DNA from: Mustelus asterias
Lineage: Eukaryota
Assembly (NCBI RefSeq): GCF_964213995.1
Contig: NC_135808.1
Span: forward strand, 90,334,001-90,398,000
Length of the DNA: 64,000 bases
Reading direction: 5' to 3'
The translations under genes and the position numbers were made by a program. The notes under the pieces are model-generated. The model searched no databases. It worked only from the letters and a program-made list of their open reading frames with translations, and was not told where the DNA came from. Shown here piece by piece: positions 249-52,799 of the stretch. Within the stretch, counting starts at the first letter, position 1; every line of letters begins with the position of its first letter.

Positions 249-1790
249 CCATAGAAACATAGAAAAAATACAGCACAAACAGGCCCTTCGGCCCACAAGT
301 TGTGCCGAACACATCCCTACCTTCTAGACCTACCTATAACCCTCCATCCTATTAAGCTCCATGTACTCATCCAGGGGTCTCTTAAAAGACCCTATTGAGT
401 TCGCCTCCACCACCACTGACGGCAGCCGATTCCACTCGCCCACCACCCTCTGTGTGAAAAACTTACCCCTAACATCTCCCCTGTACCTACCCCCCAGCAC
501 CTTAAACCTGTGTCCTCTCGTAGCAGACATTTCCACCCTGGGAAAAAGCCTCTGAGCGTCCACCCGATCTATGCCTCTCAACATCTTATATATCTCTATT
601 AGGTCTCCTCTCATCCTTCATCTCTCCAAGGAGAAAAGACCGAGCTCCCTCAGCCTATCCTCATAAGGCATGCCACTCAATCCAGGCAACATCTTTGTAA
701 ATCTCCTCTGCACCCTTTCAATCTTTTCCACATCCTTCCTATAGTGAGGCAACCAGAACTGACCACAGTACTCCAAGTGGGGTCTGACGAGGGTCTTATA
801 TAGCTGCATCATTATCCCCGGACTCCTAAACTCAATTCCTCGATTGATAAAGGCCAGCACACCACACGCCTTCTTAACCACCTCCTCCACCTGCGGGGCT
901 GCTTTTAGAGTCCTATGGACCCGGACCCCAAGATCCTTCTGATCCTCTACCGTACTAAGAGTCTTTCCCCTATATATTGTACTCCTTCATCCCATTTGTC
1001 CAACCAAAATGGACCACGACGCATTTATCTGGGTTGAAGTCCATCTGCCACTTCTCCACCCAGTCTTGCATCCTATCTATGTCCTTCTGTAACTTCTGAC
1101 ATCCCTCCAGACTATCCACAACCCCAGCAACCTTCGTGTCGTCGGCAAACTTACCAACCCATCCCTCCGCTTCCTCATCCAGGTCATTTATGAAAATGAC
1201 AAACAGCAAGGGTCCCAGAACAGATCCCTGGGGCACACCATTTAGAAAAAGACCCATCTATACCCACTCTCTGCCTCCTTTGGGCAAACACAGTAAGAAG
1301 TTTAACAACACCAGGTTAAACTTCTTACTGTGTTTACCCCAGTCCAACGCCGGCATCTCCACATCCTTTGGGCAAGCCAGTTCTGGATCCACCGGGCAGC
1401 AGCCCCTTGGATCCCATGCCCTCTCACTTTTTCTAGAAGCCTTGCATGGGGGACCTTATTGAACGCCTTGCTAAAATCCATATAAACCACATCTACCGCC
1501 TCCCCTTCATCAATGTGTTTAGTCACATTTTCGAAGAACTCCACCAGGCTCGTAAGGCACGATCTGCCCTTGACAAAGCCATGCTGAGTATTCTTGAGCA
1601 TACTAAACCTCTCTAAATGCTCATATATCCTGTCCCTCAGGATCTTCTCCATCAGTTTACCAACCACTGAGGTTAGACTCACCGGTCGGTAATTTCCTGG
1701 GCTATCCCTATTCCCTTTCTTGAAAATAGGAACCACATCCGCAATCCTCCAATCCTCCGGCACCTCTCCCGTCTCCATCGACGACGCAAG
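249..1790 (-). mobile_element. CR1 LINE, 5'-truncated
   Basis: ORF2 fragments [34 protein letters not shown]; TTTCTATG-type tail. Confidence 0.93.
1288..1363 (+). mobile_element. 76-bp Penelope tail micro-insertion with hairpin, inside CR1
   Basis: TSD TCCTTTGGGCAA at 1276-1287 and 1364-1375; tail CCAGTCCAACGCCGGCATCTCCACA matches the 51546 element. Confidence 0.85.
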
Positions 1791-15286: not shown

Positions 15287-15550
15287 CTGTCTTGTCTGGA
15301 GACAATACACATCTTTTTAGCCTGTCTTGATGCTCTCTACATTCACATTGTATCTTAAAGACTTGATTAGCTGTAAGTATTCGCATTCCAACCATTATTC
15401 GTGTAAATTGAGTCTGTGTCTTTATATGCCCTGTTTGTGAACAGAATTCCCACTCACCTGAAGAAGGGGCTTGGAGCTCCGAAAGCTTGCATGGCTTTTG
15501 CTGCCAAATAAACCTGTTGGACTTTAACCTGGTGTTGTTAAACTTCTTAC
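15287..15550 (+). mobile_element. Penelope-like 3'UTR/pLTR fragment
   Basis: Homologous to the 3' end of the 15657 element; TSD TACAATAAGAGA at 15275-15286 and 15551-15562. Confidence 0.85.
15455..15492 (+). ncRNA. Minimal hammerhead-like motif (stem I degenerate)
   Basis: CAC-CUGAAGA-A-GGGGCU(UGG)AGCUCC-GAA-AGCU-U. Confidence 0.6.
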
Positions 15551-15656
15551 TACAATAAGAGAGCCAGTAGTACCCAAGGAACGTAACGCCAATATAAATC
15601 AGACACCTTGGTAAAGAACACGGTGGCATAGTGGTTAGCACTGCTGCCTCACAGCA

Positions 15657-17555
15657 AGCAGTCTCACAACACCAGGTTAAAGTCCAACAGGTTTATTTGG
15701 TAGCAAATACCATAAGCTTTCGGAGCAATGCTCCTTCGTCAGATGGAGTGGTCTCTGTTCTCAAACAGGGCACAGACACAGAAATCAAATTACAGAATAC
15801 TGATTAGAATGCAAATCTCTACAGCCAGCCAGGTCTTAAATGCACAGACAATGTGGGTGGAGGGAGCATTCAACACAGGTTAAAGAGATGTGTATTGTCT
15901 CCAGACAGTACAGCTTGTGAAATTGTGCAAGTCCAGGAGTCAAGCTGTGGGGGTTACTGATAATGTGACATAAATCCAACATCCCGGTTTAGACCGTCCT
16001 CATGTGTGCGAAACTTGGCTATCAGTTTCTGCTCAGTGACTCTGCGCTGTCGTGTGTCGTGAAGGCCGCCTTGGAGAACGCTTACCTGAAGATCCAAGGC
16101 TGAATGCCCGTGACTGCTGAAGTGCTCCCCCACAGGAAGAGAACAGTCTTGCCTGGTGATTGTCGAGCGGTGTTCATTCATCCGTTGTCGTAGCGTCTGC
16201 ATGGTTTCCCCAATGTACCATGCCTCGGGACATCCTTTCTTGCAGCGTATCAGGTAGACAACGTTGGCCAAGTTGCAAGAGTAGGTACCATGTACCTGGT
16301 AGATGGTGTTCTCACGTGAGATGGCATCCGTGTTGATGATCCGGCACGTCTTGCAGAGGTTGCTGTGGCAGGGTTGTGTGGTGTCGTGGTCACTGTTCTC
16401 CTGAAGGCTGGGTAGTTTGCTGCAGACAATGGTCTGTTTGAGGTTGCGTGGTTGTTTGAAGGCAAGAAGTGGGGGTGTGGGGATGGCCTTGGCGAGATGT
16501 TCGTCTTCATCAATGACATGTTGAAGGCTCCGGAGGAGATGCCATAGCTTCTCCGCTCCGGGGAAGTACTGGACGACGAAGGGTACTCTGTCCACCGTGT
16601 CCCGTGTTTGTCTTCTGAGGAGGTCGGTGCGGTTTTTCGCTGTGGCACGTCGGAACTGTTGATCGATGAGTTGAGCGCCATATCCTGTTCTTATGAGGGC
16701 ATCTTTCAGCATCTGGAGGTGTCTGTTGCGATCCTCCTCATCCGAGCAGATCCTGTGTATTCGGAGGGCTTGTCCGTAGGGGATGGCTTCTTTTACGTGT
16801 TTAGGGTGGAAGCTGGAGAATTGGAGCATCATGAGGTTATCCGTGGGCTTGTGGTACAGTGAGGTGCTGAGGTGACCGTCCTTAATGGAGATGCGTGTGT
16901 CCAAGAATGCAACCGATTCCGGAGAGTAGTCCATGGTGAGTCTGATGGTGGGATGGAACTTGTTGATGTCATCATATAGTTGTTTCAGTGATTGCTCACC
17001 ATGACTCCAAAGGAAGAAAATGTCATCGATGTATCTAGTGTATAGCATCGGTTGAAGGTCCTGTGCGGTGAAGAAGTCTTGTTCGAACCTGTGCATGAAG
17101 ATGTTGGCATATTGAGGTGCGAATTTTGTCCCCATGGCTGTTCCGTGTGTCTGGATGAAGAACTGGTTGTTGAAGGTGAAGATATTGTGATCCAGGATGA
17201 AGCGGATGAGTTGTAAAATTGCATCTGGAAACTGGCAGTTGACGGCATTGAGTACTGAGGCCGTTGCAGCAATGCCATCATCGTGGGGGATGCTGGTGTA
17301 GAGTGCCGAGACGTCCATTGTGACGAGGAGTGCTCCTGGTTCAACTGCTCCATGTGTGTTGAGTTTCTGTAGGAAGTCCGTAGTGTCGCGACAAAAGCTG
17401 GGGGTTCTTTGTACAATGGGTTTCAAGATGCCCTCGACATAGCCGGAGAGGTTCTCGCACAGGGTTCCGTTTCCTGAAACGATGGGACGGCCGGGTGTGT
17501 TTGCCTTGTGTATTTTTGGGAGGCAGTAGAGATCTCCAACGCGTGGAGTACGTGG
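15657..17555 (-). mobile_element. 5'-truncated Penelope-like retroelement (Neptune-type: RT + Cys linker + GIY-YIG), inserted in a V-SINE
   Basis: Open frame 15954..~17553 with MDVSALYTSIP, GTAMG, RYIDD, PCHSNLCKTC, VVYLIRC..WYIGET; TSD TGCCTCACAGCA at 15645-15656 and 17556-17567. Confidence 0.93.
15710..15746 (-). ncRNA. Minimal type I hammerhead ribozyme in Penelope pLTR
   Basis: CCAU-CUGACGA-A-GGAGC(AUU)GCUCC-GAA-AGCU-U-AUGG on minus strand. Confidence 0.8.
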
Positions 17556-19491: not shown

Positions 19492-19513
19492 TAACGCCGG
19501 CATCTCCACATCA
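19492..19513 (+). mobile_element. 22-bp Penelope tail micro-insertion
   Basis: TAACGCCGGCATCTCCACATCA between TATTTTTCTGGAG repeats (19479-19491, 19514-19526). Confidence 0.75.
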
Positions 19514-49700: not shown

Positions 49701-50902
49701 TTCAGTAAGATCACTTCTGATTCTTTTTTCAAGACACTCCTCAAAACCTACTTCTTTGATCTTGGAAGTAATATCAACATGAGGGAAGACTTATTCACCA
49801 TGAGTGGTTATGAACTAGAGTAAAATTCTCTAGCAGAGAGCCAGAGCAGACATGAGGGGCTGAATGGTGCCCATCTGTACTATAATAATTCTGTGAAGTA
49901 ATGTTGCTCAGTGTCTAATTTTGCTTTCTAGCACTCCCGTGTAGCACCTTGGGGCATTTTAATATCCTAAAGCTGCGACATAAATATAAGCTGTTGATAT
50001 AGAGATGCTTGCATTTAAAATTAGCAGCTTCAGGCCAAGTGAAATATACAACTAGCAAAATGACTCACTGGAAACCCAAGTCTGACCTGCAACCCCTGTC
50101 ATCTTGGCCAAGGGCAACGGGCACATCAGAACAACACCTGAAATTCTCACACCATCCTGACTTGAAAATATATCCCCCGTCCTTAATCATTGCAGGGTCA
50201 ATATCCTGGGACATCCTAACAGCAGTGTGTGCCTACAGAAGAACAACAAACTTGCATTTATGTGGTGCCTTTAGCAGAATTAAACACCCCAGGGCACTTC
50301 ACAGCGACATTATAAAAGAAAATATTCCGGAGATATTAGCTCATAATGGACAAAGAGGCAAGTCCTTAATCATTTCTTGCTCCAAAAAAACCCCAATTCA
50401 AATTGAATCCAATTCATGGTCCCCAGGTGAGAAACATTCTAGATCCAAGCTGACAAAGAACAGGCTTGATCCTACACTAGTTTGCAAATAGTTAACTGTT
50501 GTTAAATGTTAAAAGGGGCATCCAGCAATGTGAATGTGCCAGCAAGCCTCCATTCAAACTATAGCTGACTGCTGCAGGAAGCCAGGAATGAATCACTTTC
50601 TGTTCCTGTTTTGTAAACTCCTCCTGCCTTGGTGTGAAGAGTTAAGCAGCAGTTCTGCGAGCTGCACCCACAAGTTTACCAGACGATCTTTCACCCAGTG
50701 ACCTGCCAAGAGAACAAGGCAGGAGGGAGGTGGAGGTTTTGGACACTGACCGCGGCAGGCTCTTTTGGAAATGGTTGGTGGGCACGATGCTCCTGTGCAG
50801 ATACTCAGTGTCTGGGCTGGAGCTGCTGCTCCGGGTCAGCCGCAGCGCGCCGGCTCTGCCCAGCCCTCTACTGAACGTGGAAGCGACCCGCAGCACAGCC
50901 AT
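40454..50902 (-). CDS. CPT2: Carnitine O-palmitoyltransferase 2, mitochondrial, 5 exons, 658 aa
   Basis: complement(join(40454..40785,42915..44219,45218..45324,47213..47293,50751..50902)) = 1977 nt; Arg/Ser-rich presequence, SLPRLPIP, RWFDKS, catalytic [25 protein letters not shown]. Confidence 0.98.
41095..41360 (+). mobile_element. V-domain SINE, alternative tail
   Basis: Family consensus match. Confidence 0.85.
41976..42760 (-). mobile_element. Old non-LTR retrotransposon 3' fragment in CPT2 intron 4
   Basis: [17 protein letters not shown] and MQYSPLACM remnants; 3' end resembles the tail of the 4577-type SINE. Confidence 0.65.
42915..44219 (-). CDS. CPT2: CPT2 exon 4 (1305 nt)
   Basis: [19 protein letters not shown]...KEAAM; lies within ORF 42694..44205; donor gtaagt. 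Confidence 0.98.
44714..44845. mobile_element. ~130-bp MITE-like element
   Basis: Imperfect TIR TAGGATGGAATTTTACCAGCACGTCCGCCC / GGGCGGGCGTGCCGGTAATATTCCGGCCATA. Confidence 0.7.
45218..45324 (-). CDS. CPT2: CPT2 exon 3
   Basis: [35 protein letters not shown](G). Confidence 0.96.
46712..47070 (-). mobile_element. V-domain SINE
   Basis: Reverse complement of the family consensus. Confidence 0.85.
47213..47293 (-). CDS. CPT2: CPT2 exon 2
   Basis: [26 protein letters not shown](R). Confidence 0.96.
48528..48910 (+). mobile_element. tRNA-derived SINE (family B)
   Basis: A box GTGGCACAGTGG, B box GGTTCGAATCCC; tail GGGATGGGCAATAAATGCTGGCC. Confidence 0.8.
50751..50902 (-). CDS. CPT2: CPT2 exon 1 (coding part)
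   Basis: [15 protein letters not shown]...TNHFQKSLP(R); donor gtcagt. Confidence 0.93.
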
Positions 50903-51500: not shown

Positions 51501-51638
51501 CAGGCAAATTGTTGGAAGTGACCTTTGTTTGTCTATTGAAACCTTCATGTGGAGATGCCGGCGTTGGACTGGGGTGAACACAGTAAGAGTTTTAACAACA
51601 CCAGGTTAAAGTCCAACAGGTTTATTTGGTAGCAAACA

Positions 51639-51673
51639 CCATTAGCTTTCGGAGCACTGCTCCTTCGTCAGAT
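51639..51673 (-). ncRNA. Minimal hammerhead motif, inverted partner (stem I truncated)
   Basis: AU-CUGACGA-A-GGAGC(AGU)GCUCC-GAA-AGCU-A-AUGG on minus strand. Confidence 0.65.
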
Positions 51674-51708
51674 ATTTCGATATTTCCACTCCATCTGACA
51701 TTTCCACT

Positions 51709-51745
51709 CCATCTGACGAAGGAGCAGCGCTCCGAAAGCTAATGG
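51709..51745 (+). ncRNA. Minimal type I hammerhead ribozyme
   Basis: CCAU-CUGACGA-A-GGAGC(AGC)GCUCC-GAA-AGCU-A-AUGG. Confidence 0.8.
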
Positions 51746-52799
51746 TGTTTGCTACCAAATAAACCTGTTGGACTTTAACCTGGTGTTGTTAAAACTCTTA
51801 CTGTATTGAAACCTTGCCAGCTGTGGTTCACTTCACTGAACATTCACCTCTTGAGGTTTCCTCATGTTTCCTCCGGGTGCTCCGATTGCCTTCCACAGTC
51901 CAAAGATGTGCGGGTTAGGTTGATTGGCCATGCTAAATTGCCCCTTAGCATCCCGGGATGCGTAGGTTAAAGGGACTAGCGGGTAAATATGAGGTTATGG
52001 GGATAGGGACTGGGTGGAATTGTTGTCGGTGCAGACCCGATGGGCCGAATGGCCTCCTTCTGCGCTGTAGGGTTTCTATGATTTTAGAAGGTAATGGGTT
52101 GAAGTCCCAATCCAGGGCTTGAGTACCGAAGTATAGACTGGTTCTCCAGTTCAGTAGCCTGGCAAGTGAGTGCTGCACTGTCACAGGTAACATCGTTCAG
52201 GCCAGTTGTTAAACCAAAGGCCTGTTTTCTCTCAGGTGAATGTAAAAGATCCCATTTCAAAGAGGTACTGGGGAATGAAGCCCTAGTGTCCTGGGCTTAT
52301 TAACATGTATCCCTTAATCAACATCACACAAAAAACATTATCAGGTAATTCTCCCATCCTTGTTTGCAAGGTTTGCTGTGTCCAAATTGTTGCACTTCCC
52401 ACATTACAACTGTGACTATCCCTCATAGATTCTACATTATAAAGCACTTTGGGATTCCTGAGGTCATGCAAAACACTACGTAAAAAATGCAAATATCTTT
52501 CACCTTGAAGCAAAAGGATCATTAGGAAACTTCAGCAACATTTTAGGAAAACAGGGTTGTGCCTCACCAATCTGATTGAATTTGTGAAGAAATTTTCTAA
52601 TTTGGTGGATCTTGTTGCCAAGTTGGCATATTTGTATCTTGATACAAGGTGCTGCACACAAAGTGATTCAGACTGAGCACTTGTGGTTCTATCGAGCAGG
52701 TTTTGGGGTGAATATAGAAATCAGTTGCATACTTCTGTTGCTCCTCCGATACGGGCTCAATTGAAGTTGCAGTCACAGATTCTCAAATTATCGTACAAC

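What the first reader, a model, noticed from the sequence alone, without database searches (positions are those of the whole stretch)
51534..51815. 258-bp palindromic mini-element with two opposed hammerhead ribozymes and a 12-bp TSD upstream of CPT2
Seen: ~94-bp inverted arms with 1 mismatch. Each carries CUGACGA-stem II-GAA-AGCU-A, with palindromic AGCU as stem III. The centre has stuttered micro-duplications (GATATTTC x2, ATTTCCACTCCATCTGAC x2). Known: Penelope-like elements carry minimal type I hammerheads thought to act as dimers and often have inverted pLTRs. Inference: either a template-switch product or a non-autonomous retrozyme-like unit. It places a ribozyme motif on each strand ~650 bp upstream of the CPT2 start.
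Basis: partly seen in the sequence, partly recalled or inferred. Interest (0 to 1): 0.7.

Follow-up and report, generated by a model that had tools for sequence, protein, structure and literature searches.

The report
Back-to-back Penelope retrotransposon end stubs
This 258-base DNA palindrome upstream of the CPT2 gene is real but ordinary: two cut-off, ribozyme-bearing ends of a very abundant Penelope-type jumping gene lie back to back, a layout found thousands of times in this genome and likely made afresh at each insertion.

Summary
In detail: 93-bp inverted arms (1 mismatch), a 12-bp target duplication, two hammerhead cores and a stuttered centre, 644 bp upstream of the CPT2 start. It is a short insertion of a high-copy Penelope-like element (60,244 exact tail matches; intact 892-aa copies exist). 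A tail-bearing arm is joined head-to-head to a tail-less arm, the textbook layout for this class. Of 96 tail sites taken in genome order, 66 have it, with arms of about 30 to over 1,000 bp; selected copies reach 2.6 kb. This exact junction occurs once, so it is not a replicating retrozyme. The minus-strand hammerhead has lost most of helix I, and a read-through RNA is predicted to bury the ribozyme in a 93-bp hairpin. Population features (correlated, symmetric arm lengths; microhomology at both target ends; stuttered centres) favour two target-primed cDNAs joined in the middle; this is inferred. Junctions pile up just upstream of the hammerhead (7,092 versus 4,375 and 1,162 in equal bins), which makes this size class common. 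The scan found the same layout before on other DNA (45 notes, at least 9 genomes). Low interest.

The parts
51534..51545 (.). Left copy of 12-bp target-site duplication
   Evidence: Identical to 51804-51815; 12 bp is the modal TSD of the family, 52 of 62 inverted insertions have a 7-14-bp TSD
51546..51580 (-). 35-bp Penelope 'tail', on one arm only; in full-length copies the ORF's ATG follows it directly
   Evidence: 29-mer of it has 60,244 exact matches; 892-aa ORF starts right after it in L147-L149
51581..51673 (-). Tail-bearing arm: 5'-truncated element end, cut 2 nt upstream of the hammerhead core
   Evidence: 0 nt of native upstream sequence in the centre
51636..51675 (-). Minimal hammerhead with intact core and helix II but helix I reduced to 2 Watson-Crick pairs plus 1 wobble; predicted cut site between 51643 and 51642
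   Evidence: Sequence; fold; numbering from established hammerhead convention
51674..51697 (.). 24-nt junction insertion made of stuttered copies of the neighbouring arm start
   Evidence: junction-spanning 26-mer occurs once in the genome
51698..51803 (+). Tail-less inverted arm (13 nt of native upstream sequence plus the 93-bp arm), ending at the internal site 35 nt before the tail end
   Evidence: 52 of 66 inverted arms end 29-37 nt before the tail end
51705..51748 (+). Complete minimal type I hammerhead (helix I CCAU/AUGG, core CUGACGA, extra A, 5-bp helix II, GAA, palindromic AGCU, A17); predicted cut site between 51741 and 51742
   Evidence: the 42-mer has 7,747 exact matches; helix I covariation across 79 copies
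51804..51815 (.). Right copy of 12-bp target-site duplication
50753..50902 (-). CPT2 first coding exon (neighbour, not part of the element)
15660..17555 (-). Long 5'-truncated copy of the same element family (sister subfamily) with open RT and GIY-YIG frame

Best explanation
The palindrome is a single short insertion of an abundant Penelope-like retrotransposon, with two 5'-truncated copies of the element end lying head to head between a 12-bp target duplication, likely built during integration and likely inert since. Shown: identity with the family's end, the one-sided tail, the TSD, the unique junction, and that most copies in the genome share this layout. Inferred mechanism (about 0.55 on its own): the element's endonuclease cuts both target strands about 12 bp apart; each 3' end primes reverse transcription, one at the tail end and one at the internal site about 35 nt upstream; both cDNAs stop just past the hammerhead; end joining with abortive templated synthesis links them and leaves the stutter. 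The hammerheads are passengers: each RNA strand carries one sense copy, predicted to be paired with its own complement.
For: Family: 60,244 exact tail matches; RT (E 3e-10) and weak GIY-YIG (E 6e-4, below cut-off) in the window's long copy; 892-aa ORFs flanked by the same end. Layout: 66 of 96 tail sites have an adjacent inverted arm, 52 of 66 ending 29-37 nt short; TSD in 52 of 62; kb-scale versions with 1.9-2.6-kb arms; 4,375 palindromes joined downstream of the hammerhead core. One-off junction: 1 match; 45 distinct centres in 48. Twin priming: arm lengths correlate (rho 0.75, n=66; 0.60 and 0.71 within two subfamilies) and either arm may reach further in (20 inverted longer, 23 tail arm longer, 23 within 10 nt); target microhomology exceeds shuffles at the short-arm end (mean 1.7, n=30, shuffled 0.52) and tail end (1.18, n=44, shuffled 0.48). 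The anole element cuts and extends both strands in vitro from two start sites that bound the tail (PMC11167929). Ribozyme burial: core unpaired probability at most 0.001; forcing the hammerhead fold costs about 30 kcal/mol.
Against: 30 of 96 sites had no adjacent inverted arm detected (long copies cut by the fetched flank, later insertions, or truly single-armed). One simple centre recurs 4 times among 48 and a perfect GATATC centre recurs in the listing, so occasional re-copying of some palindromes is not excluded. The microhomology test dropped 22 of 52 short-arm and 8 of 52 tail junctions that could not be mapped cleanly. Arms share subfamily in 25 of 26 classifiable cases, which fits one template molecule (fold-back) as well as two sister RNAs. 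The sample comes from the first 4.5 Mb of one contig and needs an exact tail match, so it favours young copies. The anole study reports no primer-template homology in vitro, whereas short microhomology is seen here. No empty site was seen.
Confidence: 0.86

Rival explanations
1. Same ordinary insertion, but the mirror is made by self-priming or fold-back of one nucleic-acid strand (as proposed for rotifer Penelope elements, on an antisense template), with the endonuclease then trimming the tail from one side.
For: Arm lengths correlate; both arms are of one subfamily in 25 of 26; some centres are perfect palindromes; model in PMC3846280 and 'EN-mediated resolution' in PMC8557442.
Against: In 20 of 66 the tail-less arm reaches more than 10 nt further in than the tail arm, by up to about 280 nt, which fold-back of a tail-first cDNA cannot give; microhomology at both target ends; many centres carry extra inserted sequence.
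Confidence: 0.3
2. A non-autonomous, retrozyme-like mini-element that is transcribed, self-cleaved or circularised and copied as a 258-bp unit.
For: Thousands of similar-sized palindromes; a size peak at this class; one simple centre recurs 4 times in 48; the plus-strand hammerhead is complete.
Against: This junction is unique; centres nearly all differ; continuum of arm lengths including palindromes joined downstream of the hammerhead core; retrozymes are tandem repeats with one hammerhead per unit (PMC7229834; bioRxiv 2026.07.22.740005), here the two are on opposite strands; hairpin buries the core.
Confidence: 0.04
3. The insertion now affects CPT2: as a promoter-proximal cruciform, a source of double-stranded RNA from upstream antisense transcripts, or a ribozyme.
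For: 644 bp from the ATG, beside a GC-rich first exon (GC 0.62, CpG o/e 0.63); a transcript running away from CPT2 would read the complete hammerhead strand.
Against: With about one exact tail match per 61 kb, proximity to some gene start is expected many times; near-identical arms suggest a young copy with no sign of retention by selection; folding predicts an inactive ribozyme.
Confidence: 0.05

Closest known systems
Complex insertions of endonuclease-bearing Penelope-like elements: inverted 5'-truncated copy plus one-sided 30-40-bp tail and TSD (PMC8557442, PMC3846280; passages read)
   Same: Head-to-head inverted end, tail on one side only (35 bp), TSD (12 bp; 8-10 bp in rotifer examples), palindromic junction.
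   Different: Both arms are extremely short, with no ORF between; centre has a 24-nt stutter; in this family the ATG follows the tail, whereas in the rotifer element the repeat includes the first codons.
Poseidon element of Anolis carolinensis, PAc (PMC11167929; main text read)
   Same: RT then GIY-YIG order, hammerhead in the terminal repeat, two RT start sites whose spacing matches a tail.
   Different: There the ORF starts at helix II and RT starts inside the ORF; here the ORF starts after the tail. Short target microhomology is seen here. Clade membership was not tested by a tree.
Minimal type I hammerheads of metazoan PLEs (PMC4209133; results and discussion read)
   Same: [quoted passage not shown]
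   Different: Helix II is 5 bp rather than 7-8; one of the two copies here is truncated in helix I.
Non-LTR retrozymes (PMC7229834, passages; bioRxiv 10.64898/2026.07.22.740005, first fifth)
   Same: Small, non-coding, hammerhead-bearing, related to PLE terminal repeats.
   Different: Retrozymes are tandem repeats with canonical hammerheads yielding circular RNA; this is a single inverted unit with a TSD and a unique junction.

Membership tests
EN+ Penelope-like element insertion | Sequence is the terminal repeat of an element encoding RT plus C-terminal GIY-YIG | tested here: met
   Arm matches the end of 892-aa ORF copies at 91-94%; RT E 3e-10, GIY-YIG E 6e-4 below cut-off; those long copies are a sister subfamily
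EN+ Penelope-like element insertion | Inverted 5'-truncated copy at the 5' end | tested here: met
   66 of 96 family sites
EN+ Penelope-like element insertion | 30-40-bp tail on one end only | tested here: met
   35 bp at 51546-51580; 52 of 66 inverted arms end 29-37 nt short
EN+ Penelope-like element insertion | Short target-site duplication | tested here: met
   12 bp; 52 of 62 in the family; empty site not observed
Penelope/Poseidon clade | Phylogenetic placement of RT | not tested
   No tree built; assignment rests on domain order and recalled motifs
Minimal type I hammerhead | Catalytic core, helix II, extra base after A9, palindromic helix III stub | tested here: met
   Both arms; no Rfam hammerhead model hit at E up to 10
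Minimal type I hammerhead | Helix I of 4-5 bp and non-G at position 17 | tested here: met
   Met for the plus-strand copy only. Across 79 copies the first pair is C-G in 44 and U-A in 33; position 17 is U 55, A 23, C 1, G 0 (copies fall in a few subfamilies, so not independent)
Minimal type I hammerhead | Helix I in the minus-strand copy | tested here: not met
   Native 5' strand replaced by junction sequence
Minimal type I hammerhead | Self-cleavage as monomer or dimer | not testable with these tools
   Needs in vitro assay; fold predicts burial in read-through RNA
Non-LTR retrozyme | Tandem units each with a same-strand hammerhead | tested here: not met
   Single inverted unit, opposite strands
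Non-LTR retrozyme | Multiple genomic copies of the same unit | tested here: not met
   Junction unique; 45 distinct centres in 48
Non-LTR retrozyme | Circular or monomeric RNA expressed | not testable with these tools
   Only assembled contigs were available; no raw RNA reads

The most novel reading that the evidence does not exclude
The ~250-bp double-hammerhead class is the run-off product of a dimeric Penelope ribonucleoprotein that primes both target strands at once from the two RT start sites, with both cDNAs ending at a preferred RNA 5' end 0-30 nt upstream of the hammerhead core. The tens of thousands of junctions in this genome would then map the element's transcript start and settle how the inverted-repeat-plus-tail layout of Penelope elements is made.
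Probability: 0.33. Interest if true: 0.5.

Novelty: new member of a known kind. Interest (0 to 1): 0.17.

Why it matters
This copy matters little: it is one of thousands and shows a layout already described. The population behind it is useful. How Penelope elements make inverted ends and tails is called unresolved in PMC8557442 and PMC3846280, and a genome with over 60,000 tail-bearing copies gives junction statistics (arm-length coupling, two-sided microhomology, a truncation hot zone) that can discriminate twin target priming from fold-back.

Tried and rejected
Rfam scan found no hammerhead family, only chance hits. A DNA search with the 80-bp tail end returned nothing because very common words are skipped; replaced by patterns. 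Run search: no RNA holder listed. Laying contigs of 4 runs was swamped by other family copies; no listed piece spans the locus, so neither an empty site nor polymorphism could be seen. (all-against-all arm extents) was invalid because palindromes aligned through their centres; redone against sense-only references. CPT2 translations were in the wrong frame; corrected. A sharp pile-up of junctions at the hammerhead cut site was looked for by eye in the 50 places listed and not seen; one search shows only a mild rise there (12 of 157 at risk). Dimer co-folding gave helix II cross-pairing, not the catalytic dimer. Arms from two different subfamilies were sought: 1 discordant in 26, itself doubtful. 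Look-ups of earlier notes by sequence and by place were empty. Paper searches for Penelope with shark palindromes, twin priming or self-priming listed only PMC3846280 as relevant; subscription papers and supplements were not seen, so absence from print is not established.

Full report
Observation. The sequence shows a 258-bp insert (51546-51803) between two copies of TATTGAAACCTT, with 93-bp inverted arms differing at one position and a 37-nt centre holding the two stutters described. Each arm has a hammerhead core, CUGACGA, an extra A, a 5-bp helix II, GAA, palindromic AGCU and A17. The CPT2 ATG is at 50902 on the minus strand, 644 bp away. Two things were missed: the left arm carries 35 extra bases (the tail), and the left arm is cut 2 nt upstream of its core, so its helix I is mostly lost.

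Identity. The arm is the end of a Penelope-like element. A long copy of a sister subfamily lies in the same window (15660-17555) with RT and a weak GIY-YIG hit. The genome holds at least 81 high-scoring matches to that protein; of 12 fetched, four have 891-892-aa ORFs whose ATG directly follows the tail. A 29-mer of the tail has 60,244 exact matches and the 42-nt hammerhead 7,747.

The layout is the family's normal product. I examined 96 of the first 100 listed tail matches, in genome order on one contig. Sixty-six have an inverted arm directly adjacent at the 5' end; 52 of these end 29-37 nt short of the tail end. Of the 62 with a normal outer end, 52 have a TSD of 7-14 bp, mode 12. Tail arms in the sample run from 30 to 1,072 bp and copies selected by their RT reach 2.6 kb. 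This matches the published description of PLE insertions: inverted 5'-truncated copy, 30-40-bp tail on one end (PMC8557442, passages), head-to-head with TSD (PMC3846280, passages). Opposite-strand hammerhead pairs from truncated PLEs were noted in PMC4209133 (results and discussion). PMC3846280 was a lead from earlier notes, which report the same layout in 45 findings from at least 9 genomes.

Not a replicating unit. The junction-spanning 26-mer occurs once. The 258-bp search returned about 40 loci at 88-93% with different flanks and centres. Among 48 of 49 parsed short palindromes, 45 centres are distinct; one simple blunt centre occurs 4 times in a set biased towards the query. Genome-wide there are 1,989 exact opposed-hammerhead junctions with 15-45-nt centres, but also 4,375 palindromes joined downstream of the hammerhead core. 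Retrozymes are tandem repeats with a hammerhead in each unit (PMC7229834, passages; bioRxiv 10.64898/2026.07.22.740005, first of five parts); that test is failed.

Ribozyme. The family's hammerhead looks selected in the source elements: in 79 copies the first helix I pair is C-G in 44 and U-A in 33, and position 17 is never G (few subfamilies, so few independent events). In this copy each strand has one sense motif. Either full transcript folds into the long hairpin (-181 and -191 kcal/mol); the core's unpaired probability is at most 0.001, and forcing the hammerhead on the plus strand costs about 30 kcal/mol. In vitro, minimal PLE hammerheads are inactive as monomers (PMC4209133) and the anole one needs protein and is dispensable for insertion (PMC11167929, first two of four parts). 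Activity here is unlikely but untested.

Mechanism (inferred). The anole protein cuts and extends both target strands, is predicted to dimerise, and starts RT at two sites bounding the tail (PMC11167929). The genomic pattern fits paired target priming. Arm lengths are coupled (rho 0.75, n=66; 0.72, n=62; 0.60 and 0.71 within two subfamilies) and symmetric: inverted arm longer in 20, tail arm longer in 23, within 10 nt in 23. Fold-back of a tail-first cDNA cannot make the tail-less arm the longer. Microhomology with the target exceeds shuffles at both ends: 1.7 versus 0.52 (30 of 52 junctions mappable) and 1.18 versus 0.48 (44 of 52). The 24-nt centre here is an iterated copy of the adjacent arm start, resembling templated insertions of polymerase-theta end joining (recalled; search listing only); RT template jumping would look similar. 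Against: arms share subfamily in 25 of 26 classifiable cases (36 of 62 unclassified), which a one-molecule model also predicts.

Why this size is common. With identical anchors and equal 31-nt bins, palindromes number 4,375 (gap 0-30), 7,092 (93-123) and 1,162 (186-216); only these three bins were counted, and this copy's gap is 125. Of 109 arms with a core, 44 end within 30 nt upstream of it, a several-fold higher stop rate than further upstream (missing references for old subfamilies may inflate this). Run-off at a transcript start in the terminal repeat is the simplest reading; stalling after the hammerhead helices is the rival. Neither was tested.

CPT2. Nothing links the insert to CPT2 beyond distance; at one exact tail per 61 kb such neighbours are expected. 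Public contigs could not show an empty site.

Verdict. Real, correctly described, but an ordinary short inverted Penelope insertion. Interest 0.17; the residual value lies in the population's junction statistics. Searches for a published twin-priming account found none, but subscription papers and supplements were not seen.

Noticed in passing
window 15660-17555 (-): 5'-truncated copy of the same family with a 533-aa open RT/GIY-YIG frame, 97% identical to an intact 892-aa copy; SINE-like sequence abuts both ends.
   Followed up: partly
window 15458-15551 (+): Another hammerhead-bearing arm of a different subfamily, pointing towards the long copy.
   Followed up: no
window 1287-1364: Tiny palindromic insertion of the same family (no hammerhead) with tail and an apparent 11-bp TSD.
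   Followed up: partly
window 19493-19511: Tail-only stub of about 20 bp between an apparent 13-bp duplication.
   Followed up: no
window 51546-51590 (-): The tail region reads like a 3' splice site (branch-point-like CTTAC, pyrimidine run, AG) just before the ORF's ATG; Penelope elements are known to keep 5' introns. Splicing not tested.
   Followed up: no
L153 834-6460, L154 811-5242, L155 777-4983: Kilobase-scale head-to-head insertions with arms of 2.6, 2.0 and 1.9 kb at 99.1-99.8% identity, tail on one side only.
   Followed up: partly
L031 and L118: Two different insertions share the same 13-bp TSD inside similar flanks, suggesting a preferred site within another repeat.
   Followed up: no
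window about 51.2-51.5 kb, 51.9-52.1 kb and 52.8-53.1 kb: Three related SINE-like repeats surround the insertion; their resemblance to shark HE1/V-SINE repeats is recalled, not tested.
   Followed up: no
L147 3192, L148 about 3125: Two full-length copies begin their 5' repeat 0-12 nt upstream of the arm start, in the same zone where short arms end.
   Followed up: partly
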